Below are positions 23,747 through 43,807 of a stretch of 48,294 nucleotides of DNA, piece by piece; position 1 is the stretch's first letter, and the number at the start of each line of letters is the position of its first letter. The position numbers and the translations under genes were made by a program. This DNA comes from Parcubacteria group bacterium (GTDB taxonomy: Bacteria > Patescibacteriota > Minisyncoccia > Phycocordibacterales > CALRHW01), in assembly GCA_039740835.1 (NCBI GenBank), contig JBCLGW010000002.1, forward strand, positions 1 through 48,294, written 5' to 3'. The notes beneath the pieces were generated by a model. The model was given only the letters and a program-made list of their open reading frames with translations. It did not search any database and had not been told where the DNA came from.

Positions 23747-24685
23747 ATGAACAGCCCTAAAACAAAAATAAGAGTTGGGGTGTTGCGTGGCGGACCGTCC
23801 GACGAATACGAAGTTTCTCTCAAAACTGGTAGCAACATTCTCAAAGCTATGCCCGAGCACTATCACGCTCGCGATATTTTTATAGACAAAAAAGGTGATT
23901 GGCATTTAGACGGAATTGTAAAAAAACCAAACGCTATCATCCGCCACTTTGATGTTATTTTCAACGCACTTCACGGAAACTATGGCGAAGATGGAAAAGT
24001 TCAAAAACTTTTAGATGACCATGGTGTGCCATACACTGGCTCTGGTGCACTTGCGTCTGCTATTGGAATGAACAAATATTTATCAAAAAATGTTTATCGA
24101 GAAAACGGTTTGAAAACTCCGCATTATGAGCTCATTCGTCGCACCGACAATTCTCAGTCAATGATGTTTGGCGTGTATGCAAACTTACGCAAACCTCTAG
24201 TAGTAAAGCCAGCGACTTCAGGGTCATCGCTAGGAGTAACAGTAAACATCACCGATTTTGAACCTTTTTTGAAAGCGACAGAAGAAGCTTTCAAGTTTTC
24301 TGATTCTGTGTTGGTTGAAGAATTTATTCTAGGTAGGGAAGCGACCTGTGCTGTGATAGACAGCGCAAAAACAAAAGGTCACGCCTATGCGCTTGCTCCG
24401 ATAGAAATAATCAAGCCCCAAGAAATCTGCCCCGGTAATTTTACTGAAAAAGAAACAAAAGAAATACAAGAAATGGCGATAAAAGCACACAAAGTACTCG
24501 GCCTGCGTCACTATTCTCGCTCTGATTTTATGGTCACCGACAAAGAAATTTATATTTTAGAAACAAATACTTTACCGGGTCTCACAGCAGAATCACTTTT
24601 GCCAAAGGCGCTTAAAGTCGCGAATTGTTCCACCTCTGATTTTATAGACCACGTCATTATTTTGGCGATGGGTAATAAGCTTTAG
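23747..24685 (+). CDS. ddl: D-alanine--D-alanine ligase
   Basis: ATP-grasp layout: VGVLRGGPSDEYEVSL, HGNYGEDGKVQ, the SGSSLGV loop, and SRSDFMV...ILETNTLPGLT. Confidence 0.9.
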   Translation: MNSPKTKIRVGVLRGGPSDEYEVSLKTGSNILKAMPEHYHARDIFIDKKGDWHLDGIVKKPNAIIRHFDVIFNALHGNYGEDGKVQKLLDDHGVPYTGSGALASAIGMNKYLSKNVYRENGLKTPHYELIRRTDNSQSMMFGVYANLRKPLVVKPATSGSSLGVTVNITDFEPFLKATEEAFKFSDSVLVEEFILGREATCAVIDSAKTKGHAYALAPIEIIKPQEICPGNFTEKETKEIQEMAIKAHKVLGLRHYSRSDFMVTDKEIYILETNTLPGLTAESLLPKALKVANCSTSDFIDHVIILAMGNKL

Positions 24686-24731
24686 GTTTCTATGCAGTTT
24701 CTTGATTTTATACAGCTTTTTGCCTATAATT
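24611..24731 (+). repeat. direct repeat copy 1 (authentic ddl 3' end plus downstream promoter)
   Basis: This 121 nt is nearly identical to 25778-25898. I count about 6 substitutions by eye. Confidence 0.9.
24702..24730 (+). promoter_or_regulatory. sigma70-like promoter (copy 1) upstream of the PG-binding gene
   Basis: TTGATT, a 17-nt spacer, then TATAAT. Confidence 0.6.
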
Positions 24732-24778: not shown

Positions 24779-25750
24779 ATGTTCAATATTAAAAAAATTA
24801 TGTTTAAAAATTCAAAATCTGCAAAAGTTTTTGCAGGAGTTGTGGGATTCGCAATGGTAGTAGCTGCTTTTGGTGCAGTTGTTGCTCCTGTAAAGGCGCA
24901 AGTAACTAGCCCAACTGACCTAGCTTCTCTTATTGCTCTTATCGCTTCTCTGGAAGCTCAAATCGCAGCATTACAAGGTGTATCTCCATCTGTAAGAATG
25001 ACAGGTTCAGTTCCAACAGCTCCTCTTACAATGGGTAGCTCAGGTGCTGAAGTTACAAAGCTACAAGATTTACTTATTTGGGAAGGGTTCGGACCAGCAG
25101 CTGGCGCGACTGGCTACTTTGGTCCACAGACAAAGGCAGCTCTTATGGCTTACCAAGCAGCAAACGGAATTTCTCCAGCTGTTGGTTACTACGGTTCAGT
25201 AACAGCGGCTAAGATTGCTTCTATGCTTGCGGGACTCGCTTTAGCAAACCCGGCTTGGAAAATGTATCAAAATGAGAAGTATATGTTTGAAGTAAACTAT
25301 CCGATCAATTTGCAATTCAGCACCGCTTTAAATGTTGGCATGTGGGGAGGCGGTATTCCAGCAACCGACGAATCACGGTGGACAATTTTTGATCCACTAC
25401 AGTTTGGGGTGTCTGAAATTGTGGGATTAAAGGAACCAATACGTTTTTCAGCCCAGCCAGAAAAGAATTTCATTGGTTATGAGAATTTGATAAATTTTAA
25501 GCGTCAGGGTTCGCGCGATAAAATTACTCCCTTCACGCTCGGAGATGCAAAAGGATTTATTAATCATAGCGACCTTTTTTCTACTAGAGAGGCGATGATG
25601 ATATGGAAGAGTGGCTATGTGTTCCTGTTCCCGCTTGAATTTGGATATGTACTTGTTCCTGATTTATGCGGGCAGGATTGCCAGACGGCATACAATAATC
25701 TAAGTTTAACAGCTCAGCATATTATCTCAACTTTTAAATTTATTCGATAA
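24779..25750 (+). CDS. secreted protein with a peptidoglycan-binding (PG_binding_1-type) domain
   Basis: Signal or anchor segment AKVFAGVVGFAMVVAAFGAVVAPVKA. PGB-like SSGAEVTKLQDLL...GYFGPQTKAALMAYQAANGI. The C-terminal 170 aa or so are unassigned. Confidence 0.8.
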   Translation: MFNIKKIMFKNSKSAKVFAGVVGFAMVVAAFGAVVAPVKAQVTSPTDLASLIALIASLEAQIAALQGVSPSVRMTGSVPTAPLTMGSSGAEVTKLQDLLIWEGFGPAAGATGYFGPQTKAALMAYQAANGISPAVGYYGSVTAAKIASMLAGLALANPAWKMYQNEKYMFEVNYPINLQFSTALNVGMWGGGIPATDESRWTIFDPLQFGVSEIVGLKEPIRFSAQPEKNFIGYENLINFKRQGSRDKITPFTLGDAKGFINHSDLFSTREAMMIWKSGYVFLFPLEFGYVLVPDLCGQDCQTAYNNLSLTAQHIISTFKFIR

Positions 25751-25777: not shown

Positions 25778-25898
25778 CTTAAAGTCGCGAATTGTTCCAC
25801 CTCTGATTTTATAGACCACGTCATTATTTTGGCTATGAGCAACAAGCTTTAGGTTTCTGTACAGTTTCTTGATTTTATACAGCTTTTTGCCTATAATT
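25778..25898 (+). repeat. direct repeat copy 2 (orphan ddl 3'-end fragment plus promoter)
   Basis: Encodes a remnant of the last ~24 Ddl codons (LKVANCSTSDFIDHVIILAMSNKL-stop) with no upstream gene body, followed by the same promoter. Confidence 0.9.
25869..25897 (+). promoter_or_regulatory. sigma70-like promoter (copy 2) upstream of tRNA-Ala
   Basis: TTGATT, a 17-nt spacer, then TATAAT, about 40 nt upstream of the tRNA 5' end. Confidence 0.6.
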
Positions 25899-25938: not shown

Positions 25939-26014
25939 GGGCCCTTAGCTTAGTTGGTAGAGCGCCTCATTTGCAATGAGGAGGTCATCGGTTCGAATCC
26001 GATAGGGTCCACCA
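25939..26014 (+). tRNA. tRNA-Ala (anticodon UGC), CCA encoded
   Basis: Hand-folded cloverleaf. The acceptor is GGGCCCT/AGGGTCC with the G3:U70 alanine identity pair. The anticodon arm is CCTCA-TTTGCAA-TGAGG and the T arm is ATCGG-TTCGAAT-CCGAT. Ends in ACCA. Confidence 0.95.
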
Positions 26015-26097
26015 AACGAAACGTTTGCGAAATTAGAAATGCGGAAGAGGCAAAGTAAAAACTATTTTTGCGGGAGGAAAGGATTTTGCTTTGCCTC

Positions 26098-26195
26098 GGC
26101 TCTTTTTGTTGGTGGGATTTTGTATCCGTCGCGCAGGAGGGTGCGGGAGGAATGCGCGACGAATTCGTTTCTGGTTTTTCGCTGGATTTTTCGGC
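26098..26195 (-). repeat. inverted-repeat copy A of a ~100-nt element, possibly extending to about 26041
   Basis: The reverse complement (GCCGAAAAATCCAGCGAAAAACCAG...) aligns with 29323-29426 at about three quarters of positions by eye. It contains the hairpin GTCGCGCA(26128-26135)/TGCGCGAC(26153-26160). Confidence 0.75.
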
Positions 26196-26244
26196 CAAAT
26201 TATGGGAATATATCAATATAAGTTAAAAATAATAAAAAAGAAAA

Positions 26245-26420
26245 ACGCCTAAACCTCGGCACTTTTTGCCGTAGGCACGGCAACCAAATTCCAAACCACG
26301 ACAGTAAGCTCCTCATGGAGCGCTCATGGTTGGATCTGTAGCCGAAAGGTTATGGGATAGTCCGAAAGGGCTATCACTCGTGGGGAGCTTTCTGTTTCCC
26401 GTCGCGAGCGCCAAAACCCA
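26245..26420 (+). promoter_or_regulatory. candidate structured leader RNA (riboswitch-like) upstream of the Kelch/carboxypeptidase pair
   Basis: GC-rich 175 nt with stacked hairpins: CGGCA-CTTTT-TGCCG; GCTCC-TCAT-GGAGC; TAGCC-GAAA-GGTTA; ATAGTCC-GAAA-GGGCTAT; GGGA-GCTTTCTGT-TCCC. The two GAAA tetraloops point to the plus strand. No Shine-Dalgarno precedes the ATG at 26426. Confidence 0.4.
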
Positions 26421-26425
26421 ACCAC

Positions 26426-27508
26426 ATGACCAAATTTAGATTTTTTTGTTTTGTACTAACGATCGTCATACTCGGCTTGATAGTTTTTGCATATTTATAT
26501 TCCTCGCGTCAGGCGGTTTATTCTTCCGCAAAAACGCACCAAGTTGAGGTGGGTCAGGTAGCGGAATTTCAGCCGCGTCTTTTGTCGTGGTCGCAAGCGA
26601 CATCGTCCGCAGAATGGCAACTGAGAGACTCGGCTGTTGGTTTTGTGTTCCAAAACAAAATGTGGACGATGGGCGGATTAAATGGAAACAAGGAGATTGA
26701 TAGCAACCACACTGTCCACTATTGGGAAGCTCCGCATTTCAACGATATATGGACGAGTGAAAACGGCGCGCATTGGCAATTGGTAAAGGCACATGCGCAG
26801 TGGCCACCCAGACGATCCATGTCCGTTGTTTCGTTTCAAGACAAGTTATGGATGTTTGGTGGGTGGAGTTCGATTACCGGATACACGAGCGATATTTGGC
26901 AATCAGATGACGGTATCACTTGGACAAAAATTGTTTCGAAAGCTCTGTGGCCAGCCAGAGAAGGACAAACAACAGAAATATTTGATGGAAAGATTTGGAT
27001 GATGGGAGGAGTGAATTATGACAGACGAGAAGTGAAAAACGATGTGTGGTATTCGGACGACGGACTTCTTTGGCATCAGGCCACGACAACAATCCCGTGG
27101 AGTCCCAGATGGGATCACGCCACCGCCGTTTTCAACGGAAAGATATTTCTCGTTGGCGGTATGAATTTATCAGACCAAACATTCAAGGATATTTGGTCGT
27201 CGTCTGATGGATTCCATTGGGAATTATTGACTGCTTCGCCACCGTGGCAGGATCGGCAAGGTCATTCTCTTGTCATATTCCATAACAAGCTGTGGATTAT
27301 CGGAAGACTAAACGATAACGAAAGAGGAGGAGTAAACGATATTTGGTATTCCAATGATGGTACAACATGGCAAAAAACGGACGCCAATCCACCATGGGCA
27401 GGACGGGAGGATCATTCCGTTCTCATTTTTGACAATCGAATGTATGTGTTTGGCGGCATGGATGCAAATTGGCAATGGCGGAATGATGTCTGGTTTTCAT
27501 CAAACTAA
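26426..27508 (+). CDS. Kelch-type beta-propeller repeat protein, membrane-anchored
   Basis: Six repeats of about 47 aa of the form (K/N)DxWxSxDGxxW...PW..R..H..vvF..k.W..GG. The N-terminal TM is FFCFVLTIVILGLIVFAYLY. GC-rich. Confidence 0.85.
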   Translation: MTKFRFFCFVLTIVILGLIVFAYLYSSRQAVYSSAKTHQVEVGQVAEFQPRLLSWSQATSSAEWQLRDSAVGFVFQNKMWTMGGLNGNKEIDSNHTVHYWEAPHFNDIWTSENGAHWQLVKAHAQWPPRRSMSVVSFQDKLWMFGGWSSITGYTSDIWQSDDGITWTKIVSKALWPAREGQTTEIFDGKIWMMGGVNYDRREVKNDVWYSDDGLLWHQATTTIPWSPRWDHATAVFNGKIFLVGGMNLSDQTFKDIWSSSDGFHWELLTASPPWQDRQGHSLVIFHNKLWIIGRLNDNERGGVNDIWYSNDGTTWQKTDANPPWAGREDHSVLIFDNRMYVFGGMDANWQWRNDVWFSSN

Positions 27509-27511
27509 AAT

Positions 27512-29320
27512 ATGGATAAATTACCAAATAAAAAATTGCTTGCTCTCAGCGCTTTGTGTATCGGCGGCGTTCTACTTGTATTATTTATTTTATTGCTATC
27601 GAGCAAACTGCCGATTTTGAGTTTCGATAATCACAGTCAGCTTGCCCAAATTATCGCTATTGAAACCGACTTGCTGAAAAAATGGCAAGAAAATGGCTCA
27701 CTTAAAAACAATCTCACATATAATTCGGAGGGCGGCGATGTTCGGCTACTTCAGCGAATGCTCTCGCAGGATGACGCGGCGTATCCAGAGAAAAAAATTA
27801 CCGGATACTACGGAGATTTAACTAAACAAGCAGTGCGGAATTTTCAGAGAGAATACCGTCTTCCAGAGACAGGCACAGTTGATATGGCGACAAGAAAAAA
27901 ACTGAATGAGATATTTTTGTCGCATCTCTGTCCCGAACCCGTCGCCATATATCCGGAATTTATGATGAAAAAAGTTGGAGTAAATTATCGTGTACCGTCG
28001 GATTACGTGCCACCTCTCTTGGTGGATATTTCGGCAAAAGTAAATACGGTTGGTATCGCGTGCCTTCGTAGAGATGTCGTGCCGCGTGTAGTGCAGATGT
28101 TTACTGACGCAAGAAATGACGGTGTAAAATTTATGATTACCTCCAGCTATCGCAAACTGGAAATACAAAAATATCTATACGACTTTTGGATACAAGTCGA
28201 AGGAGATAAGGCGATCAATGAAATCGCGGAACCCGGCCTGTCTGAACATCAGCTGGGAACTACAATTGACATCACTGATTCGTCAATAAATTTTGCGGGT
28301 GTTGATGATAGATTTGCAAACAGCAAAGGCGGAAAGTGGTTACAAGCAAACGCATATAAATATGGCTTCACGATGAGTTTTCCCAAGGGCAAACAAAACA
28401 TAACAGGTTTTACCTATGAGCCATGGCACTGGCGTTTTTTGGGCGTTGAGACGGCCACGCGGTTGTATCAGCAGGATTTGACATACAACGAAACAAACCT
28501 TGCCTCCAATGACTTTCCTATCTTAAAAAACAACGTGGACGGATTGACACTTTCCGCAAATTCATTTATCTCGATTTCTGTTGCGAGCAACGGCAAGGAA
28601 AAAATCCTTATTGAAAAAAATAAAGAGCGACAGCTCCCGATAGCGAGTATTACCAAACTCATGGTCGCTCTAATTGCCTCGGAACAGCACAAGGCAGACG
28701 ATATTATTACCATTTCGGAAGATGCGCTCACAGGCAAAGGAGTATCCGGTGTCTATACAGCAGGCGAGAGTTTTCTATTTTCGGACGCACTGTACCCGTT
28801 ATTACTCGCTTCTCATAACGAGATTGCAAGCACGTTGGCGAAACAAAACGGCACAGCTAATTTTGTTAGTGCGATGAACAAAAAAGCAGTCACGCTCGGT
28901 ATCACAGATACAGTCTATGTAAATCCGACAGGGCTCGATCCAATGGTTGGTAGCGAGACGATAAATCGCTCAACTGCCTTTGATATTTATAAACTAGCAA
29001 GGTACATTTCAGAAAATCGTCCTGATATTTTCTCAATAACTTCCCAAACGCAATACTATCTCATGGATTCCGAAGGAAACTTTATAGCGACCATCGAAAA
29101 TACCAATAAACTTGTTGGACAGCGAGACAATCCGTTCCGCATAACTGGCAGCAAGACGGGAGAAACGCCGCGAGCAAAACAAAACCTTGTCATTGTAGCC
29201 GAGTCGCCATGCGGCGGCAAAATATTTAGCATTGTGCTTGGCTCGCAAAATAGTTTTAAAGATATGCAAAATCTGCTTTGGTATGTACATAATTCATTCG
29301 AGTGGAGCTGTTCTTCTTAG
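27512..29320 (+). CDS. fusion protein: TM anchor, PG-binding domain, VanY/M15B-type zinc D,D-carboxypeptidase, and S11-type serine D-Ala-D-Ala carboxypeptidase
   Basis: PGB: GGDVRLLQRML...GYYGDLTKQAVRNFQREYRL. M15B: SSYR, SEHQLGTTIDI, EPWHWRF. S11: SITK (SxxK), SHN (SxN), KTG. Confidence 0.85.
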   Translation: MDKLPNKKLLALSALCIGGVLLVLFILLLSSKLPILSFDNHSQLAQIIAIETDLLKKWQENGSLKNNLTYNSEGGDVRLLQRMLSQDDAAYPEKKITGYYGDLTKQAVRNFQREYRLPETGTVDMATRKKLNEIFLSHLCPEPVAIYPEFMMKKVGVNYRVPSDYVPPLLVDISAKVNTVGIACLRRDVVPRVVQMFTDARNDGVKFMITSSYRKLEIQKYLYDFWIQVEGDKAINEIAEPGLSEHQLGTTIDITDSSINFAGVDDRFANSKGGKWLQANAYKYGFTMSFPKGKQNITGFTYEPWHWRFLGVETATRLYQQDLTYNETNLASNDFPILKNNVDGLTLSANSFISISVASNGKEKILIEKNKERQLPIASITKLMVALIASEQHKADDIITISEDALTGKGVSGVYTAGESFLFSDALYPLLLASHNEIASTLAKQNGTANFVSAMNKKAVTLGITDTVYVNPTGLDPMVGSETINRSTAFDIYKLARYISENRPDIFSITSQTQYYLMDSEGNFIATIENTNKLVGQRDNPFRITGSKTGETPRAKQNLVIVAESPCGGKIFSIVLGSQNSFKDMQNLLWYVHNSFEWSCSS

Positions 29321-29322
29321 TC

Positions 29323-29426
29323 GCCGAAAAATCCAGTGCAAAATCAAAAAAGTATCCGCCGTGGATTCCTCCCTAAACCCCTCCTCCGCGCGGGAACCCA
29401 ATCCGAATTTCCGCCAAAAAAATTAG
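29323..29426 (+). repeat. inverted-repeat copy B of the ~100-nt element, interrupted at 29426 by the cassette
   Basis: Aligns with the reverse complement of 26098-26195. The equivalent hairpin CCGCCGTGGA(29356-29365)/TCCGCGCGG(29385-29393) keeps pairing through different bases. Homology to copy A resumes at about 33760. Confidence 0.75.
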
Positions 29427-29432
29427 TCTCGG

Positions 29433-29471
29433 TTTTGTGTTTTGTCCACGTGAAGAAGTTGTGGTAGTGTA
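29433..29471 (+). repeat. left terminal inverted repeat
   Basis: TTTTGTGTTTTGTCCACGTGAAGAAGTTGTGGTAGTGTA. Confidence 0.9.
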
Positions 29472-29533
29472 AAGTAGTTAAAAATCTATTATACTCAAAG
29501 TAGGGTTGAGTTATAAATAATTATAAATACTAT

Positions 29534-29956
29534 ATGACTTTAATTCAAAAACTAGCATGGGTTTACGCAGTCCTTTTTGTGCTTGTAACAGTTACAGGAT
29601 ATGTGCCGGCCTTTAATGACGAGAATGGTAATTTATTCGGCTTATTTTCACTTCAATTTTATGACGACCTATTGCATCTTGCGTCCGGTATTTTGGCCGG
29701 AATAGCTGCATGGCTTTCATATCGCGCTTCTGTTTCCTACTTCAAAATTTTTGGTGTTCTGTATGGAATGGATGGTGTTGTAGGGTTACTAACAGGAAGT
29801 GGATACTTGGATCTTGGAATTTTTCTAAACGGCTCATTGGATATAGACTTGTGGACGAGAATTGCAGCTAACACACCTCATATATTGATTGGAGGATTTG
29901 CCACTTATATTGGTTTTGTTTTGAGTAAAAAATTTAATAATCAAACGGGGTTTTAA
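29534..29956 (+). CDS. small 4-TM membrane protein (DUF4383-like, tentative)
   Basis: 140-aa hydrophobic ORF. The family assignment is from memory of that family's look (N-terminal helix, conserved LH..G) and was not verified. Confidence 0.65.
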   Translation: MTLIQKLAWVYAVLFVLVTVTGYVPAFNDENGNLFGLFSLQFYDDLLHLASGILAGIAAWLSYRASVSYFKIFGVLYGMDGVVGLLTGSGYLDLGIFLNGSLDIDLWTRIAANTPHILIGGFATYIGFVLSKKFNNQTGF

Positions 29957-29968
29957 ATTCAAAAAAAT

Positions 29969-31132
29969 TTGAAAAAAATTCTCAACAAAATTCGGCATTC
30001 ACGTATTGCCAAGGTCATCGTCTTGGTAATATTAGTTAGTGTTTTAATTAAATCTTACGAAACCCTGACAAGTCCAAAAGTTGCCTATCCGAAACTTGAT
30101 GTATCTCAAATAAGTAAGTTTGAAGTGGAAAAAGTCAAAATTTCTGAACTACCGAAAGATGCAAAGGATAAAATACATTCTGAATTCCCAATTTATAGTT
30201 CAAGAAAAATAGAACAAACTTATTTAACACTACCAGAATGGTATCAGGTCTATAGTTATAACGAGTTCGGAGATTTCCTGCATGGTGGAGGAAGGCAGTC
30301 TGATTTTCCGTTTTTGAGATCCATAAAGAATTTTTGGAGTTATTATCGTGTTGCCATAGGAGAAAGTAAAGATGAAAAATTTAATTGGCAATACAATTTT
30401 GTTACTTGGGTTATTGGGGCAAACTTAACAATAGAATACTTTATTAAGTCGGTCTACGAAAATACGATAGGAACAATCACACAATTTATTGCAGGAAGCA
30501 GTACTGAGGCAGATAGATTTATCGCTAACTCTTGGAACAACTACGCAAAAAAGATGTATCAGACTACATGGTATCACTATCCTTATTTCGGTGACTTAAA
30601 AGGCATTTGGAAAGATACTTCTATTTTCAATAAACAATTTGTTAGAAATTTTGAAAGAAAAATTGCTTTTTCCATTTCATATTTAATAAAAGGCACTTAC
30701 GCAAAAATTTGGCTCCTAGTAGCAGTTCAAAAAGAGGATCAGACTCTCAGTATCGTGTATGCCGAAAACAGACTCGTGCTAGAAGATAATGGAGTTAAAA
30801 TTTTGAAAGAGTTATCAGATAATAAATATCTTATAGAAACCGAGAGATACGCAGGATTTAAAGAAGCCCTCATACGATTAATAGCTAAAGATGTAAGGTT
30901 TATAGAAATCCAAGGACACAATGTAATTGCACTTTCATATCTCTCAAATAAAAAATCGGAGCCGTTTCTAGACTCTAAAGATGTTGACATTTTAGATAAG
31001 AGAAAATTATTCTTTGAACCGAATAACTATACGCACAGAGTAACTTTGCGAGTTAAAACCCAAACGTTAAAAGAAGTAATTGACACCATAAATTTAAACG
31101 GAAATAAATTCGAAATGATTTATGATTTCTAA
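29969..31132 (+). CDS. hypothetical membrane-anchored protein (387 aa)
   Basis: TTG start. The N-terminal TM is IAKVIVLVILVSVLI. The protein is rich in aromatic residues (W/Y/F). No recognised motif. Confidence 0.6.
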   Translation: MKKILNKIRHSRIAKVIVLVILVSVLIKSYETLTSPKVAYPKLDVSQISKFEVEKVKISELPKDAKDKIHSEFPIYSSRKIEQTYLTLPEWYQVYSYNEFGDFLHGGGRQSDFPFLRSIKNFWSYYRVAIGESKDEKFNWQYNFVTWVIGANLTIEYFIKSVYENTIGTITQFIAGSSTEADRFIANSWNNYAKKMYQTTWYHYPYFGDLKGIWKDTSIFNKQFVRNFERKIAFSISYLIKGTYAKIWLLVAVQKEDQTLSIVYAENRLVLEDNGVKILKELSDNKYLIETERYAGFKEALIRLIAKDVRFIEIQGHNVIALSYLSNKKSEPFLDSKDVDILDKRKLFFEPNNYTHRVTLRVKTQTLKEVIDTINLNGNKFEMIYDF

Positions 31133-32099
31133 ACTTCATGGAAAGCGAAATAAGTTTTTTTATTTTATCCTCGGTTTCGTTGTTTTACTTTTTTCTTGGT
31201 TATGGTTTGTGGATCTATTTCTTGAGAATGATGACGTATATGTGGTAGCTCCACAAAATACTCAATGGGTAGAGCTTGGTAAAAATAAAATCGCCTACCA
31301 GCATTTTCAATCCAATACAAACAAAAATGTAGTTTTAATTGGTGGCACAACCGCATGGAGTGGCGTTTGGAAAAATACAGTAGAAGATTTAAGGAACGAA
31401 TATAATATATACACAATTGACCTGCCACCATTTGGATTTTCTGTTGTTGACAAGGAATATAAATATAATCTATCAAATCAAGCGGATCTAATTAATGAGT
31501 TCTTGGAGAAATTAGACATTAAAGACGTTGTTTTCGTGGCTCATTCATATGGAGCTGGCCCTTCAATGGAAGCAGTTTTAAGAAATCCTGACAATTATAG
31601 AAAGTTTGTTATTATTGATGGAGCAATTCATGTTGACAGAGAAGATAAGAAGACTATCGGGTTCATAAAAAAATTATTTAGCATCCCTACGTTTCGATAT
31701 TTAATTTCAAGTGTTGCGTTACATCTGCCCGGATTTATGGAGGCATCCTTAAAATATCTAGTTTATGACAACAGCAAGGTAGATGATTTTTGGGTAGATA
31801 TTTATAATCAGCCGTTAAGTGTAGAAAATCAAAGCCAGAAAATAGCCAAATGGTTTTATGATTTTGTTTTTGAAAATGGAGTAGGTCTTTCCAGTGAGGG
31901 AGTGAACTATAAAGATCTAAATGTTCCTGTTGCAATAATCTGGGGCAAGGAAGATACATTTACCCCACTCGAGCAGGGTTTATACTTGCAAAAAATTATT
32001 CCCAAAAACGAATTATTTATATTGGATAAAGTGGGGCACATTCCCATGATTGATGACCACGAGCATTATATTAAGGTGTTGAAAATTTTTTTGGAGTAA
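31122..32099 (+). CDS. membrane-anchored alpha/beta-fold hydrolase
   Basis: Overlaps the previous gene by 11 nt. The nucleophile elbow is VAHSYGAG. WGKEDTFTP and the C-terminal GHIPMIDDHE fit the Asp/His positions. Confidence 0.8.
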   Translation: MISKLHGKRNKFFYFILGFVVLLFSWLWFVDLFLENDDVYVVAPQNTQWVELGKNKIAYQHFQSNTNKNVVLIGGTTAWSGVWKNTVEDLRNEYNIYTIDLPPFGFSVVDKEYKYNLSNQADLINEFLEKLDIKDVVFVAHSYGAGPSMEAVLRNPDNYRKFVIIDGAIHVDREDKKTIGFIKKLFSIPTFRYLISSVALHLPGFMEASLKYLVYDNSKVDDFWVDIYNQPLSVENQSQKIAKWFYDFVFENGVGLSSEGVNYKDLNVPVAIIWGKEDTFTPLEQGLYLQKIIPKNELFILDKVGHIPMIDDHEHYIKVLKIFLE

Positions 32100-32105
32100 A
32101 TATAA

Positions 32106-33707
32106 ATGGAAACTTTAAAAAAAATAATTAAAAAGCCATTAGTAATTTCTATAATCGCGGTTGTGATTACGATTTTTGTGCTTGGAAAGAAAATCCAATA
32201 CTACGCCGCCGATCCTGTTGGAGAAAAAGATTGTCTGCCAATTTTCCCAAGTTTTGCTGGCGACCCAATAAAACAAAATAGAATTGAAATGACGAGGTAT
32301 GAGCTTTCTTGGACACAGAAGGGAGGATATATCAACGATGCAAGCTGCCTAAACAAAACTGCCGTGCACGGCATTGTTTCAGTAAAGAACGCAGACGAAA
32401 TTAAAAGCGCTTTGATATTTGCAAAAGATGAAGATTTGAAAGTTTCCATTGCAGGAGTCAAGCATAGTATGGGCGGACACGCATTTTATAAGAACGCTTT
32501 GATTCTGGATATGACAAAGTTTAATCAAATGACTCTTAGTGAAGAAAGTAAAATATTAAACGTTCAGAGCGGTGCAACATGGCACGATATCCAAAACTTC
32601 CTTCATCCAAAATTTGCTGTCAAGGCTATGCAATCAACAGACATTTTTACTGTTGGTGGCTCTATTTCAGTCAATGCTCACGGGATGGATCACCATGCAG
32701 GGGCAGTTGCAAAAACCATTCGCTCCATGCGGGTGATGCTTTTTGATGGTTCGGTTAAAAATGTCAGTCGCACGGAGAATACGGAGCTATTTAACCTTGT
32801 AATCGGCGGCTACGGCCTTTTTGGGATAGTGTTAGATGTTGATTTAGAGATAATGGATAATGTTGTGTATCAATCTGAGCGAAAGATAATTGACTACAAA
32901 GAATTTCCGGATGTATTTAGTGGGGAAATTGCAAATGATGATAGTATCGGACTATTCTACAGTCATCTTTCCACGGCGCCGCAGTCGTTTTTGAAAGAAA
33001 TGATTTTGTACACATATAAAAAAGTTGATGCGCCTGATGCAGAAATTCCTCCGCTTGGCGAGGTGAGTAGTATTAAGTTGCGAAGATTGATTTTTAATCT
33101 TGCCAAGAAAGGATCAATTCCCATGCGATTAAAGTGGTTTGCAGAAAAGTACATTGAACCTATGATTGAAAATTGCCCCGTTTCAAGAAATCAGGCCCTC
33201 ACCGAGGGCGAGGCTTGTTTGGTATCACGAAACGAACCTATGCATGATTCTGTGCCGTATCTTCGCAATAATTTGAAAAATGACACCGACATTTTACATG
33301 AATACTTTATCCCTCGCGATCAGTTTGTTTCGTATGTTGATGGAATGAGAAAAATCATACTCGAAAATGATGTAAATCTTCTCAATGCTTCCGTGCGCAT
33401 AGTGCACAAGGAAAATAACTTTTTGAATTATTCACCCAAAGATGCATTCTCTATTGTTTTATATTTAAATCAGACTACCGACGAGGAGGGTAATAATAAA
33501 ATGCAGAAAGTTACGCAAGAGCTTATTGATTTGACTATTGCGCACGACGGACGATTCTTTTTGCCATATCAACTACACTATACAATAGAACAACTGGAAA
33601 AATCATATCCTGAATTTAGGTCATTCTTGGCAAAGAAAAAGCAGTATGATCCGCAGGAACGATTAACAAGCACATTTTACAAAAAATATTCTGCCGAAAT
33701 TCAATAA
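32106..33707 (+). CDS. membrane-anchored FAD-linked oxidase (PCMH / FAD_binding_4 type)
   Basis: N-terminal TM. An FAD-binding PCMH-like core (VSIAGVKHSMGGH...VQSGATWHDIQ...VGGSISVNAHG) and a C-terminal substrate domain ending HDGRFFLPYQLHYT. Confidence 0.75.
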   Translation: METLKKIIKKPLVISIIAVVITIFVLGKKIQYYAADPVGEKDCLPIFPSFAGDPIKQNRIEMTRYELSWTQKGGYINDASCLNKTAVHGIVSVKNADEIKSALIFAKDEDLKVSIAGVKHSMGGHAFYKNALILDMTKFNQMTLSEESKILNVQSGATWHDIQNFLHPKFAVKAMQSTDIFTVGGSISVNAHGMDHHAGAVAKTIRSMRVMLFDGSVKNVSRTENTELFNLVIGGYGLFGIVLDVDLEIMDNVVYQSERKIIDYKEFPDVFSGEIANDDSIGLFYSHLSTAPQSFLKEMILYTYKKVDAPDAEIPPLGEVSSIKLRRLIFNLAKKGSIPMRLKWFAEKYIEPMIENCPVSRNQALTEGEACLVSRNEPMHDSVPYLRNNLKNDTDILHEYFIPRDQFVSYVDGMRKIILENDVNLLNASVRIVHKENNFLNYSPKDAFSIVLYLNQTTDEEGNNKMQKVTQELIDLTIAHDGRFFLPYQLHYTIEQLEKSYPEFRSFLAKKKQYDPQERLTSTFYKKYSAEIQ

Positions 33708-33709
33708 TC

Positions 33710-33748
33710 TACACTACCACAACTTCTTCACGTGGACAAAACACAAAA
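33710..33748 (-). repeat. right terminal inverted repeat
   Basis: Exact reverse complement of 29433-29471. Confidence 0.9.
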
Positions 33749-33906
33749 ACAAAAATTAGCCGAGATTTCGCAAAACCGAGTCCATATTTGTATTGTGTTC
33801 CCCCCCACTTTCCATTTTGGAAAGCTCTTTACTTCGCATAGAGGCGCGTAGCGTGTGGGGAAACGCTAGCTCTTCATTTTTTCTTGGAAATAAGTTCGAG
33901 CAAATG

Positions 33907-34131
33907 CTACAATGACACCACCACAATGTGTGAATAACCACTCAAATTTTGGGTGGTTATTTCATTATTAATCTGAAAAATACAGCCTAATTTTGTGGTT
34001 CGAAAACCATTTTTCAGATCATAAACAATTCCTTCTGGGAAAACACGCTTTTGGAACCGAACACGAAGTTGCGGAGAACAATCAAACCATTGTCTCGCAA
34101 TATTCTTTATAAAGTGTTCAGCATAAGTCAA
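33907..34131 (-). pseudogene. remnant of a recombinase-like gene (C-terminal fragment only)
   Basis: There is an in-frame TAG just upstream and no ATG. The fragment ...RVRFQKRVFPEGIVYDLKNGFRTTKLGCIFQ resembles, from memory, the C-terminal region of serine-recombinase-family proteins. The catalytic N-terminal part is absent. Confidence 0.4.
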
Positions 34132-43324: not shown

Positions 43325-43807
43325 AGTTTTATGAAAAGACGCAGGCCAAGCAATCGGCCAAAAGTGGTAATGGTCAGCGGAGGATTTGATCCGGTTCATA
43401 TTGGGCACATCAGGCTTTTTAAAGATGCAAAGAAACTCGGTGACAAGCTAATCGTAGTTTTAAACAACGATCACTGGCTCAGAAAGAAAAAAGGCAAAGA
43501 ATTTATGCTGGGCGTGGAACGTAAAGAGATTATCGAGGCGCTCGCTTGCGTGGATAAAGTAATATTGTCTATGCACCCCAAAGATCCAAAGTACATGAGT
43601 GTACACAAAGAGCTAAAGAAGCTCAAACCGCATATTTTTGCCAACGGGGGAGACAGAGACTTGAAAAATGCCCATGACCCGAAGTCTTCACTTTATAAAG
43701 AAATGCAAGTTTGCAAAAAATTAGGTACCAAGATGGTATATAATGTGGGTCGTGGGGGCAAAGTCCGGTCTTCATCGGAGTTGTTGAAAAATTATCATAA
43801 AAAATAA
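43313..43807 (+). CDS. cytidylyltransferase-like nucleotidyltransferase (RfaE-II / TagD-type)
   Basis: VMVSGGFDPVHIGHIRLF carries the (H/T)xGH motif. The ORF-track GTG at 43313 lies inside the promoter, so the ATG at 43331 is the likelier start. Confidence 0.8.
   Translation: MGYSSFMKRRRPSNRPKVVMVSGGFDPVHIGHIRLFKDAKKLGDKLIVVLNNDHWLRKKKGKEFMLGVERKEIIEALACVDKVILSMHPKDPKYMSVHKELKKLKPHIFANGGDRDLKNAHDPKSSLYKEMQVCKKLGTKMVYNVGRGGKVRSSSELLKNYHKK

What the first reader, a model, noticed from the sequence alone, without database searches (positions are those of the whole stretch)
29418..33759. Cargo-only, transposon-like 4.3-kb cassette with perfect 39-bp inverted ends, a 9-bp flanking direct repeat and an in-window empty site
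Seen: TTTTGTGTTTTGTCCACGTGAAGAAGTTGTGGTAGTGTA at 29433-29471 has its exact reverse complement at 33710-33748. The 9-mer AAAAATTAG lies immediately outside both ends in direct orientation (29418-29426 and 33751-33759), as a target-site duplication would. If the cassette and one 9-mer are removed, the joined flanks read ...TTTCCGCCAAAAAAATTAG|CCGAGATTTCGCAAAACCG.... That sequence aligns across the junction with the uninterrupted paralogous repeat at about 26081-26118 (reverse complement ...ATCCCACCAACAAAAAGAGCCGAGGCAAAGCAAAATCC...). I count 25 of 38 matches by eye, and the match is continuous through the junction. The interior holds four co-oriented, tightly spaced or overlapping genes, all predicted to be membrane-anchored. 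They are a small 4-TM protein, a 387-aa protein with no recognisable motif, an alpha/beta hydrolase and an FAD/PCMH oxidase. None is a transposase, integrase or recombinase. Only a decayed recombinase-like fragment lies outside, at 33907-34131. Inference: this is either a non-autonomous element mobilised in trans that carries a membrane-associated hydrolase/oxidase module, or a large recombinase-invertible segment. I know of no described element family with this architecture in this kind of genome.
Basis: partly seen in the sequence, partly recalled or inferred. Interest (0 to 1): 0.78.

Follow-up and report, generated by a model that had tools for sequence, protein, structure and literature searches.

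The report
Inverted-repeat-bounded four-gene cargo cassette
A four-gene cell-envelope operon with no mobility gene, bounded by perfect 39-bp inverted repeats, was inserted into an intergenic repeat of a Patescibacteria-like genome; it most resembles the transposase-less "mobile insertion cassettes" of other bacteria, but how it moves is unproven.

Summary
There is an exact 39-bp inverted repeat (29433-29471 / 33710-33748) and an exact 9-mer direct repeat. Four co-oriented genes lie between the arms, and none is a transposase. The 9-mers do not abut the repeat: there are 6 nt between them on the left and 2 nt on the right.

New evidence:
- A related contig (L035) carries the same upstream genes followed by the same intergenic repeat, uninterrupted. 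This is an orthologous empty site.
- Three related lineages carry the same operon in other genomic contexts. In each it is bracketed by inverted repeats with the same inner boundaries but different sequence and length (36 to at least 127 nt).
- The arms are about 50% identical between lineages and 88-100% matched within a lineage, so the two arms change together.
- The neighbouring LOOT-Kelch-carboxypeptidase block is also bracketed by inverted repeats, in three genomes.
- The "recombinase fragment" is the C-terminus of a large serine recombinase. In other genomes this family abuts tRNA-Ala, so it belongs to the tRNA hotspot rather than to the cassette.

Best reading (0.42): a non-autonomous, MIC-like cassette. 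Rival readings are inverted-repeat upkeep by gene conversion with relocation by other recombination, an invertible segment, and RNA 5'-3' pairing. No cognate transposase and no second copy of the ends was found. Verdict: new variant of a known kind, moderate interest.

The parts
29418..29426 (+). Left copy of the 9-bp direct repeat AAAAATTAG; contiguous with the proximal part of the intergenic repeat R
   Evidence: It shares the derived TTAG with the right copy, where other R copies have GAG.
29427..29432 (+). TCTCGG between the direct repeat and the inverted repeat; reverse complement of CCGAGA at 33760-33765 (unexplained)
   Evidence: Read directly from the sequence.
29433..29471 (+). Left arm of the perfect 39-bp inverted repeat. 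It is 41 nt with one mismatch from 29431, and 49 nt at 92% to 29481. It overlaps the presumed -35 region.
29488..29493 (+). Candidate -10 hexamer TATACT. Relatives have TGnTATAAT at the same place. It lies inside the cassette, downstream of the left arm (inferred).
   Evidence: By-eye comparison of the aligned upstream regions. The consensus scan did not pick it up.
29534..29956 (+). Gene 1: small membrane protein, DUF4383
29969..31132 (+). Gene 2: conserved 387-aa protein of unknown function. It has an N-terminal helix, a helical domain and an alpha/beta domain. No transposase or recombinase fold was recognised.
31122..32099 (+). Gene 3: alpha/beta hydrolase
32106..33707 (+). Gene 4: FAD-linked oxidase (FAD_binding_4 + ALO). 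The best NCBIfam resemblance is to DprE1, far below that family's cut-off.
33710..33748 (-). Right arm of the 39-bp inverted repeat. It starts 2 nt after the stop codon of gene 4.
   Evidence: The identical sequence is present in an NCBI MAG contig (L001).
33751..33759 (+). Right copy of the 9-bp direct repeat, followed by CCGAG as in uninterrupted R copies
33760..33785 (+). Possible degenerate distal remainder of repeat R (CCGAG, then ATTTCGCAAAAC); weak
   Evidence: not significant on its own; P about 0.03-0.05
33808..33890 (+). Two terminator-like hairpins followed by a T-run; the likely 3' end of the operon transcript
29323..29417 (+). Proximal part of the interrupted repeat R. It contains an imperfect hairpin with a C-rich loop at about 29358-29398, and it is the right arm of the inverted repeat that brackets the LOOT-Kelch-carboxypeptidase block.
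   Evidence: (I3). The hairpin was read by eye.
26015..26205 (+). Uninterrupted paralogous copy of R in inverted orientation, directly after tRNA-Ala. It contains hairpin 26127-26161 (the same loop, here G-rich on the + strand).
25939..26014 (+). tRNA-Ala(UGC), the anchor of the plasticity zone
26246..29320 (+). Neighbouring block bracketed by inverted repeats: LOOT RNA (26246-26375), Kelch protein (26426-27508), and a VanY/S11 DD-carboxypeptidase (27512-29320)
33907..34131 (-). C-terminal stump of a large serine recombinase gene

Best explanation
The 4.3-kb segment (about 29427-33750) is a discrete, horizontally mobile cargo cassette. It is a self-promoted four-gene operon, probably acting on the cell envelope: a DUF4383 membrane protein, a conserved unknown protein, an alpha/beta hydrolase and a DprE1/ALO-like FAD oxidase.

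The operon is bounded by terminal inverted repeats and encodes no mobility protein. In this genome it was inserted into the A-rich linker of a hairpin-rich intergenic repeat (R) downstream of the DD-carboxypeptidase gene, and a 9-bp stretch of the target was duplicated.

The most likely mechanism is that of a non-autonomous, MIC-like transposable cassette. A transposase encoded elsewhere binds the two inverted ends, makes a staggered 9-bp cut in the target, and joins the cassette in.

Shown: the inverted repeat, the direct repeat, the empty site, the lack of a mobility gene, and the same operon bounded by inverted repeats in other contexts in relatives.

Inferred: that a transposase acting in trans did it; the exact element tips; and that the arms are kept matched because both must fit the same enzyme, or because they are homogenised by gene conversion.
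For: - The inverted repeat is exact over 39 bp and far beyond chance.
- The 9-bp direct repeat has an empirical P of 0.00075 (about 0.01 for A-rich flanks). Each copy is contiguous with the matching half of R. Both share the derived TTAG where other R copies read GAG.
- There is an orthologous empty site. L035 (flanking carboxypeptidase 84% identical) has LOOT-Kelch-carboxypeptidase followed by an intact R, and window homology stops at 29428. A paralogous intact R lies at 26015-26205.
- No mobility gene lies inside the cassette. The model of the 387-aa protein matches no solved fold at E <= 0.001.
- The same four co-oriented genes are bracketed by inverted repeats in L002, L029 and L012+L028. 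The inner boundaries are the same: the left arm ends at ...GTGTA about 60 nt before the first ATG, and the right arm starts within 3 nt after the last stop codon. The flanking genes differ.
- Window versus relatives: both arms are 49-51% identical, while the adjacent promoter/5'UTR is 76-78% and gene 1 is 83-85%. Within each lineage the arms match 88-100%.
- The architecture fits the published definition of MICs (PMC3913671, PMC4337579).
Against: - No transposase was found. Pfam scans of the ORFs between 481 and 22373 and of most ORFs up to 39241, plus the precomputed Pfam hits for the called genes from 30.9 to 43.7 kb, show none. ORFs beyond about 43.7 kb were not scanned. No cognate IS is known.
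- No second copy of the 39-bp ends was found in the window, in ~347 kb of related loci, or in IMG/VR.
- The direct repeat does not abut the inverted repeat (4-6 nt on the left, 0-2 nt on the right). A clean DDE insertion would not leave this.
- TCTCGG/CCGAGA is unexplained.
- R to the right of the insertion is mostly missing or degenerate.
- The outer limits of the inverted repeat differ between lineages (39 nt here; 36, 72 and at least 127 nt in relatives) and the tips are not conserved. Known MIC families keep their tip.
- No target duplication could be identified in L002 or L029.
- L030, a more distant relative, has the left-arm-like sequence but no right arm (the left-arm similarity is by eye). 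So the right arm looks like a derived inverted duplication of the promoter-upstream region rather than an IS end.
Confidence: 0.42

Rival explanations
1. The inverted repeat is not a transposase substrate. It arose as an inverted duplication of the promoter-upstream region to the 3' end of the operon, and gene conversion between the arms has kept it matched. That process lets the outer limits grow and shrink, as at chloroplast inverted-repeat borders. The operon changes place as part of the general turnover of tRNA-linked islands, through homologous, site-specific or illegitimate recombination. The 9-bp repeat comes from repair of a staggered break.
For: - The outer limits vary while the inner limits are fixed.
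- The arms diverge between lineages faster than the neighbouring non-coding DNA, yet stay matched within a lineage.
- L030 has the upstream sequence but no right arm (by eye).
- DNA exchange between such repeats does occur. A 46-nt spacer between 65-nt inverted repeats is an exact reverse complement between L028 and L029.
- The neighbouring LOOT-Kelch-carboxypeptidase block is likewise bracketed by inverted R copies in three genomes, each with different flanks.
- The zone also holds a gene flanked by 121-bp direct repeats and a recombinase stump.
- tRNA genes lie next to the operon in L002, L029 and L031.
Against: - 39 bp is short for efficient RecA-dependent conversion across 4.2 kb.
- The 9-bp duplication with a clean left junction is what a transposase-type staggered cut produces.
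- This reading does not explain why the same inner boundaries travel with the operon into different contexts unless the arms define the mobile unit.
Confidence: 0.27
2. The segment is invertible. Recombination between the two arms flips the 4.3-kb operon, either by a site-specific recombinase such as the neighbouring serine recombinase before it decayed, or by homologous recombination. This would be comparable to the G segment of phage Mu or the C segment of P1.
For: - The geometry fits: inverted repeats of 34-39-bp class around a 3-4-kb segment, with a serine-recombinase gene fragment 158 nt outside the right arm.
- Inversion of a short spacer between related inverted repeats is seen between two contigs.
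Against: - Only about 64-74 C-terminal residues of a ~520-aa large serine recombinase remain, with no catalytic domain.
- Homologues of that stump continue straight into antisense tRNA-Ala, so it belongs to a tRNA-integrating element.
- The presumed promoter and all four complete ORFs lie inside the arms, so flipping would switch nothing obvious.
- No relative has a recombinase next to the operon.
- Inversion does not produce a direct target duplication or an empty site.
Confidence: 0.1
3. The arms act in RNA. A transcript that starts upstream of the left arm would carry both arms. They would pair over 4.2 kb into a 39-bp duplex, a processing or stabilising stem like those flanking rRNA operons (an RNase III substrate).
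For: - Complementarity is conserved while sequence is not.
- The right arm lies in the 3' UTR before the terminator-like hairpins.
- All neighbouring genes are co-oriented, so read-through from upstream is possible.
- A second operon next door has the same layout.
Against: - The best candidate -10 element (TATACT here, TGnTATAAT in relatives) lies downstream of the left arm, so the operon's own transcript would lack that arm.
- The mismatches between arms in relatives are transitions with no bias to G-U. In L029 and L012/L028, 2 of 3 give A-C on the sense strand.
- No Rfam family matches.
- The target duplication, the empty site and the spacer inversion are DNA-level events.
Confidence: 0.1
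4. The inverted repeat is an assembly artefact.
For: 39 is a k-mer size used by some assemblers (my own knowledge of assembler defaults).
Against: - An NCBI MAG contig (L001) has the identical right arm and flank.
- Four independent related assemblies show inverted repeats at the same boundaries.
- The sequence inside and outside the arms is unique, coherent coding sequence.
Confidence: 0.02

Closest known systems
Mobile insertion cassettes (MICs): MIC231 of Bacillus cereus, Tn3-family MICs of Xanthomonas, mic-qnrD of Proteeae
   Same: Passenger genes with their own promoter lie between terminal inverted repeats. There is no transposase inside or nearby. A target-site duplication and an empty site are present. 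Arm length can vary (33-97 bp in Xanthomonas MICs). (PMC3913671, PMC4337579)
   Different: No cognate IS or transposase is known, and the ends match nothing else found. The direct repeat is offset from the inverted repeat by a few nt. The tips are not conserved between related cassettes. The arms change in parallel between lineages. The host is a Patescibacteria-like genome.
Composite structures made of two MITE-like or palindromic repeat copies flanking cargo
   Same: In relatives the arms are made of a GC-rich hairpin repeat. That repeat also occurs beside the operon as a stand-alone palindrome: 65-nt arms around a 46-nt spacer in L028 and L029.
   Different: The hairpin repeat is not high-copy in the DNA available. 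No transposase or target duplications were found for it. In the window the arms are a different, AT-richer sequence.
Serine-recombinase invertible segments (Mu G/Gin, P1 C/Cin)
   Same: A segment of a few kb lies between short inverted repeats, with a serine recombinase gene just outside (my own knowledge of these systems; geometry).
   Different: The recombinase here is a dead stump of a large serine integrase tied to tRNA-Ala. No alternative gene fusions exist at the borders. An insertion signature is present.
Integron gene cassettes and attC sites
   Same: Both are cargo-only units. Their boundary sites conserve structure more than sequence.
   Different: attC is a local imperfect hairpin at one end of a usually promoterless cassette, recombined by IntI. 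Here two arms lie 4.2 kb apart, the operon has its own promoter, and no integrase or array is present.

Membership tests
Mobile insertion cassette (MIC) | Bracketed by two terminal inverted repeats | tested here: met
   39/39 exact, or 41 nt with one mismatch.
Mobile insertion cassette (MIC) | No transposase gene inside or nearby | tested here: met
   - Pfam and NCBIfam on the four genes show no mobility domain.
- The structure model of the 387-aa unknown matches no solved fold at E <= 0.001.
- No transposase appears among the scanned window ORFs or in the precomputed hits for the called genes up to about 43.7 kb.
- ORFs beyond about 43.7 kb were not scanned.
Mobile insertion cassette (MIC) | Target-site duplication directly flanking the ends | tested here: inconclusive
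   An exact 9-bp direct repeat is present (P about 0.001-0.01). It is separated from the inverted repeat by 4-6 nt on the left and 0-2 nt on the right.
Mobile insertion cassette (MIC) | Ends related to those of a cognate IS whose transposase can act in trans | not testable with these tools
   No IS-end library was available. No other copy of the ends was found in the window, ~347 kb of related loci, or IMG/VR.
Mobile insertion cassette (MIC) | Occurs in different genomic contexts, and empty sites exist | tested here: met
   - Orthologous empty site in L035.
- The same operon, bounded by inverted repeats, has different neighbours in L002 and L029.
Site-specific invertible segment (Gin/Hin/Cin type) | Functional recombinase encoded in or next to the segment | tested here: not met
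   Only the last ~64-74 residues of a large serine recombinase remain, and no catalytic domain is found anywhere in the window.
Site-specific invertible segment (Gin/Hin/Cin type) | Both orientations occur | not testable with these tools
   No reads are available. Relatives share no flank with which orientation could be compared.
Site-specific invertible segment (Gin/Hin/Cin type) | Inversion changes a promoter-gene or gene-gene junction | tested here: not met
   The candidate promoter and all four complete ORFs lie inside the arms.
Large-serine-recombinase integrative element | Intact recombinase at one end; att sites with short dyad symmetry and a 2-bp core; no long target duplication | tested here: not met
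   The recombinase is truncated. The cassette has a 9-bp duplication. No copy of the tRNA-Ala 3' end lies near the stump.

The most novel reading that the evidence does not exclude
These Patescibacteria-like genomes have a cassette-exchange system in which whole self-promoted operons are bounded by long-range inverted repeats. Two lie side by side here: the four-gene cassette and the LOOT-Kelch-carboxypeptidase block. The pairing of the repeats, rather than their sequence, is what is conserved. A so-far-unidentified enzyme acting in trans would recognise the paired or hairpin ends and move the operons between hairpin-rich repeats in tRNA-linked hotspots. The logic would resemble integron attC recombination, but the geometry would be different.
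Probability: 0.12. Interest if true: 0.8.

Novelty: new variant of a known kind. Interest (0 to 1): 0.47.

Why it matters
Mobile elements of Patescibacteria (CPR bacteria) are poorly charted, and these small genomes depend heavily on their envelope for an epibiotic lifestyle.

A transposase-less cassette that carries an envelope-acting operon would be a concrete vehicle for horizontal exchange of surface functions in this group. It is found in several lineages in different places. Its unknown gene is about 60% identical to genes in Bradyrhizobium.

Three features go beyond a routine MIC:
- The two arms change in parallel between lineages.
- A second operon bracketed by inverted repeats lies next door.
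- Several envelope-related insertions are clustered between ddl, tRNA-Ala and a recombinase stump.

These point to a structured plasticity zone that can be followed up with reads and long-read assemblies.

Tried and rejected
- Composition as evidence of foreign origin: rejected. Cassette GC3 (0.29-0.37) is like the rest of the window, and the neighbouring Kelch/carboxypeptidase pair is the outlier.
- A cryptic transposase in the 387-aa protein: rejected. There is no Pfam or NCBIfam hit, and a confident AlphaFold model has no PDB match at E <= 0.001.
- Inverted repeats between the two promoter regions in distant relatives where the oxidase is convergent (L003, L009, L013): none above the shuffled background.
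- Inverted repeats in the co-oriented but more distant L030 and L031: none.
- Other copies of the 39-mer in the window (up to 3 mismatches), in all fetched loci, or in IMG/VR: none.
- The operon on viral contigs: none. On plasmids there are only distant homologues of gene 2, at most 27.5% identical.
- Known RNA families in R or in the arms: none.
- A duplicate of the tRNA-Ala 3' end near the recombinase stump, as an att-like repeat: none.
- A G-U bias in the mismatches between arms, as a sign of RNA pairing: none.
- The hairpin repeat as a high-copy REP-like element: not supported in the DNA at hand.
- A circular or tandem form of the cassette, from overlap of the L012 and L028 ends: rejected. 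By eye, the copies are only about 85% alike.
- I tried at length to derive TCTCGG/CCGAGA and the outer 15 nt of the arms from the second hairpin of R. I found no convincing derivation.

Full report
**1. The observation**

- The 39-mer at 29433-29471 has its exact reverse complement at 33710-33748. A search allowing 3 mismatches finds only these two copies, and none of 100 shuffles gave a match.
- It is the longest long-range inverted repeat (IR) in the window. It extends to 49 nt at 92% inward. Outward it reaches 41 nt with one mismatch.
- AAAAATTAG occurs at 29418 and 33751 (and at 43716).
- The 9-mers do not abut the IR. TCTCGG separates them on the left and AC on the right.
- TCTCGG is the reverse complement of the CCGAGA that follows the right 9-mer. 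I could not explain this.
- A shared 9-mer in the 20-nt outer flanks occurs in 0.075% of random position pairs 4.3 kb apart, and in about 1% of A-rich pairs.
- The four genes are as described: DUF4383, a 387-aa unknown, an alpha/beta hydrolase, and a FAD_binding_4/ALO oxidase. The oxidase's best NCBIfam resemblance is to DprE1, far below that family's cut-off.

**2. The setting**

- The window looks like a Patescibacteria (CPR) genome. The closest named homologues of its proteins come from Sungbacteria, Paceibacterota, Parcubacteria and Patescibacteria MAGs.
- An NCBI MAG contig (GCA_039740795.1; L001) is identical over the right arm and its flank.
- Upstream of the cassette lie tRNA-Ala (25939-26014), a GC-rich repeat R (26015-26205), a LOOT RNA (Rfam RF03000, 26246-26375), a Kelch protein, and a VanY/S11 DD-carboxypeptidase.
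- An inverted copy of R follows at 29323-29426 and is cut short by the cassette (I3).

**3. The insertion and the empty site**

- L035 is a contig whose carboxypeptidase is 84% identical. It carries LOOT-Kelch-carboxypeptidase followed by an intact R.
- The window aligns to that R up to 29428 and then stops. The paralogous R aligns likewise.
- To the right of the cassette only CCGAG and a weak ATTTCGCAAA match remain: score 23 against a null maximum of 27, and P about 0.03-0.05. The distal part of R, including its second hairpin, is missing or degenerate.
- Each 9-mer copy is contiguous with the matching half of R. Both share TTAG where other R copies read GAG.
- I conclude that the cassette was inserted into R with a 9-bp duplication. 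The left boundary is sharp. The right boundary is known only to within a few nucleotides.
- Two further relatives, L034 and L037, keep only the first ~10-45 nt of R after the carboxypeptidase gene and then differ.

**4. The same cassette elsewhere**

- Homologues of the 387-aa protein led to the same four co-oriented genes in L002 (Sungbacteria-type MAG), in L029, and in L012+L028. L012 and L028 are two short contigs from one metagenome, treated here as one lineage; whether they come from one genome is not shown. Protein identity to the window is 78-88%.
- All are bracketed by IRs with the same inner limits as in the window. The left arm ends at ...GTGTA about 60 nt before the first ATG. The right arm starts within 3 nt after the last stop codon.
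- A fifth lineage, L036, shows the right arm only, because the contig ends there.
- Arm lengths differ: 36 nt strong (about 200 nt with gaps) in L002, 72 nt in L029, and at least 127 nt in L012/L028.
- In these relatives the arms contain a GC-rich hairpin: GGGCGCGGCGGAA[TTCCCCCCACACCCCCC]TTCCGCCGCGCCC.
- In the window, similar hairpins with different stems and a similar C-rich loop sit in the two R copies, outside the 39-bp arms. One is perfect at 26127-26161. The other is imperfect at about 29358-29398 (by eye).
- Neighbouring genes differ between the window, L002 and L029. tRNA genes lie within 70-290 nt of the operon in L002, L029 and L031.
- More distant versions of the operon have no IR. 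These are L030 and L031 (co-oriented), and L003, L009 and L013 (oxidase convergent).
- L030 still has a sequence resembling the left arm upstream (by eye). This suggests that the right arm is a derived inverted copy of the promoter-upstream region.

**5. How the arms evolve**

| Comparison | Window vs relatives |
|---|---|
| Gene 1 (nucleotide) | 83-85% identical |
| Promoter/5'UTR | 76-78% identical |
| Left and right arms | 49-51% identical |

- Within each lineage the two arms match 88-100%.
- By hand count, the inner ~25 nt are still recognisably homologous (about 58%). The outer 15 nt are unrelated to the relatives' sequence on both sides.
- So the two arms changed in parallel. This fits ends that must both suit one enzyme, homogenisation by gene conversion, or selection for pairing.
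- The mismatches between arms are nearly all transitions with no G-U bias. The best candidate -10 element lies downstream of the left arm. I therefore rate an RNA role as unlikely.

**6. A second bracketed operon and a plasticity zone**

- The LOOT-Kelch-carboxypeptidase block is bracketed by inverted R copies in three genomes. In the window the arms are 51 nt at 80%. In L035 they are 42 nt at 88% ungapped, and about 100 nt with gaps. In L034 they are about 22 nt (by eye).
- Here too the right arm starts 2 nt after the stop codon, and the left arm overlaps the presumed -35 region.
- The three genomes share only this block; its flanks differ.
- Its GC3 (0.43-0.46) is the compositional outlier of the window.
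- Just upstream, the PG-binding protein gene (24779-25750) is flanked by a 121-nt direct repeat. The repeat consists of the last ~75 nt of ddl plus a TTGATT-N18-TATAAT promoter. This is the signature of a Campbell-type insertion.

**7. The recombinase fragment**

- The 74-aa ORF at 33907-34131(-) matches the C-terminal ~60 residues of 500-540-aa large serine recombinases. No other part of such a gene is present in the window.
- Several homologues end in ...LVDPSGFEPLTSS..RRST. For P0185 and P0188 this tail maps to the antisense strand of the window's own tRNA-Ala (81-84% identity).
- So in other genomes this recombinase gene abuts tRNA-Ala. Here about 7.9 kb lies between them: R, LOOT, Kelch, carboxypeptidase, and R with the cassette.
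- The stump is therefore a relic of a tRNA-integrating element, not a partner of the cassette. No copy of the tRNA 3' end lies near it.

**8. Mechanism**

- The insertion signature (inverted ends, 9-bp duplication, empty site, no mobility gene, the same unit elsewhere) fits best a non-autonomous cassette of the MIC type (PMC3913671, PMC4337579).
- Arguments against: there is no cognate transposase and no second copy of the ends; the direct repeat is offset from the ends; the tips are not conserved; and the outer limits vary.
- The main rival is that the arms are self-maintaining IRs, homogenised by gene conversion, and that the operon moves with general island turnover. Supporting this, a 46-nt spacer between 65-nt IRs is an exact reverse complement between L028 and L029, so DNA exchange between such repeats does happen.
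- The inversion-switch and RNA-pairing readings are less likely, for the reasons above.

**9. Verdict**

- This is a real insertion bounded by inverted repeats and carrying only cargo. It is a new variant of a known kind (MIC-like) in a lineage where such elements are not described.
- Unusual features are the parallel change of the two arms and a neighbouring operon with the same layout.
- Interest is moderate. The mechanism remains open and is testable with reads and wider sequence searches.

Noticed in passing
window 26015-29426; L035 337-3650; L034 8640-11870: The LOOT RNA-Kelch-VanY/S11 carboxypeptidase block is itself bracketed by inverted copies of repeat R in three related genomes. The right arm starts 2 nt after the stop codon. 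This block is the only stretch these genomes share with the window around it, and it has unusually high GC3 (0.43-0.46).
   Followed up: partly
window 26127-26161 and about 29358-29398; L002 7340-7382; L029 1117-1158 and 5453-5495; L012 68-110; L028 2870-2912; L031 10725-10762: There is a family of hairpins with 9-13-bp GC-rich stems that differ between copies, and a conserved ~17-nt C-rich loop (TTCCYCCC..CCCYCC, which contains CCUCC-like motifs). They were found only beside these two operon blocks, and no Rfam family matches them.
   Followed up: partly
window 33907-34131(-) and 25939-26014; proteins P0185-P0191: ORFs of a large-serine-recombinase family run at their 3' ends into the antisense strand of tRNA genes (tails such as LVDPSGFEPLTSS). 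This implies that the attachment site lies within the end of the recombinase gene and inside a tRNA. In the window the stump and tRNA-Ala are 7.9 kb apart.
   Followed up: partly
L028 2979-3024 vs L029 5562-5607: A 46-nt spacer between 65-nt inverted repeats (98% matched), just right of the operon, is an exact reverse complement between two related contigs. A small DNA segment has therefore been inverted.
   Followed up: yes
window 24611-24731 and 25778-25898: A 121-nt direct repeat (95%) consists of the last ~75 nt of ddl plus a TTGATT-N18-TATAAT promoter. It flanks the PG-binding protein gene (24779-25750) just before tRNA-Ala, which looks like a Campbell-type insertion.
   Followed up: partly
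window 7247-7288/7344-7385 and 10995-11034/11086-11125: There are two more near-perfect 40-42-nt inverted repeats around GC-rich 51-55-nt spacers, in intergenic DNA. The second sits exactly between the stop codons of two convergent genes. Their sequences are unrelated to each other and to the cassette arms.
   Followed up: partly
window 29969-31132; L005, L008, L010 (Bradyrhizobium): The unknown 387-aa protein is about 58-61% identical to stand-alone genes in Bradyrhizobium, and about 27% identical to genes on Ralstonia and Ruegeria megaplasmids. That identity is very high for such distant phyla and suggests horizontal transfer.
   Followed up: partly
L003, L009, L013 vs window, L030, L031: The oxidase gene is convergent to the other three genes in the more distant Paceibacterota-type loci, and co-oriented in the window clade. 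The gene has therefore been flipped during the evolution of the module.
   Followed up: no
L037 7248-7473; L035 10-96: Fragments of tRNA 3' ends are repeated in inverted orientation next to tRNA genes in the relatives. These are consistent with scars of repeated integration.
   Followed up: no
L001 start (= window about 30859): The NCBI MAG contig that carries the same sequence begins inside gene 2 of the cassette, not at a cassette boundary. The cause of this contig break is unknown.
   Followed up: no
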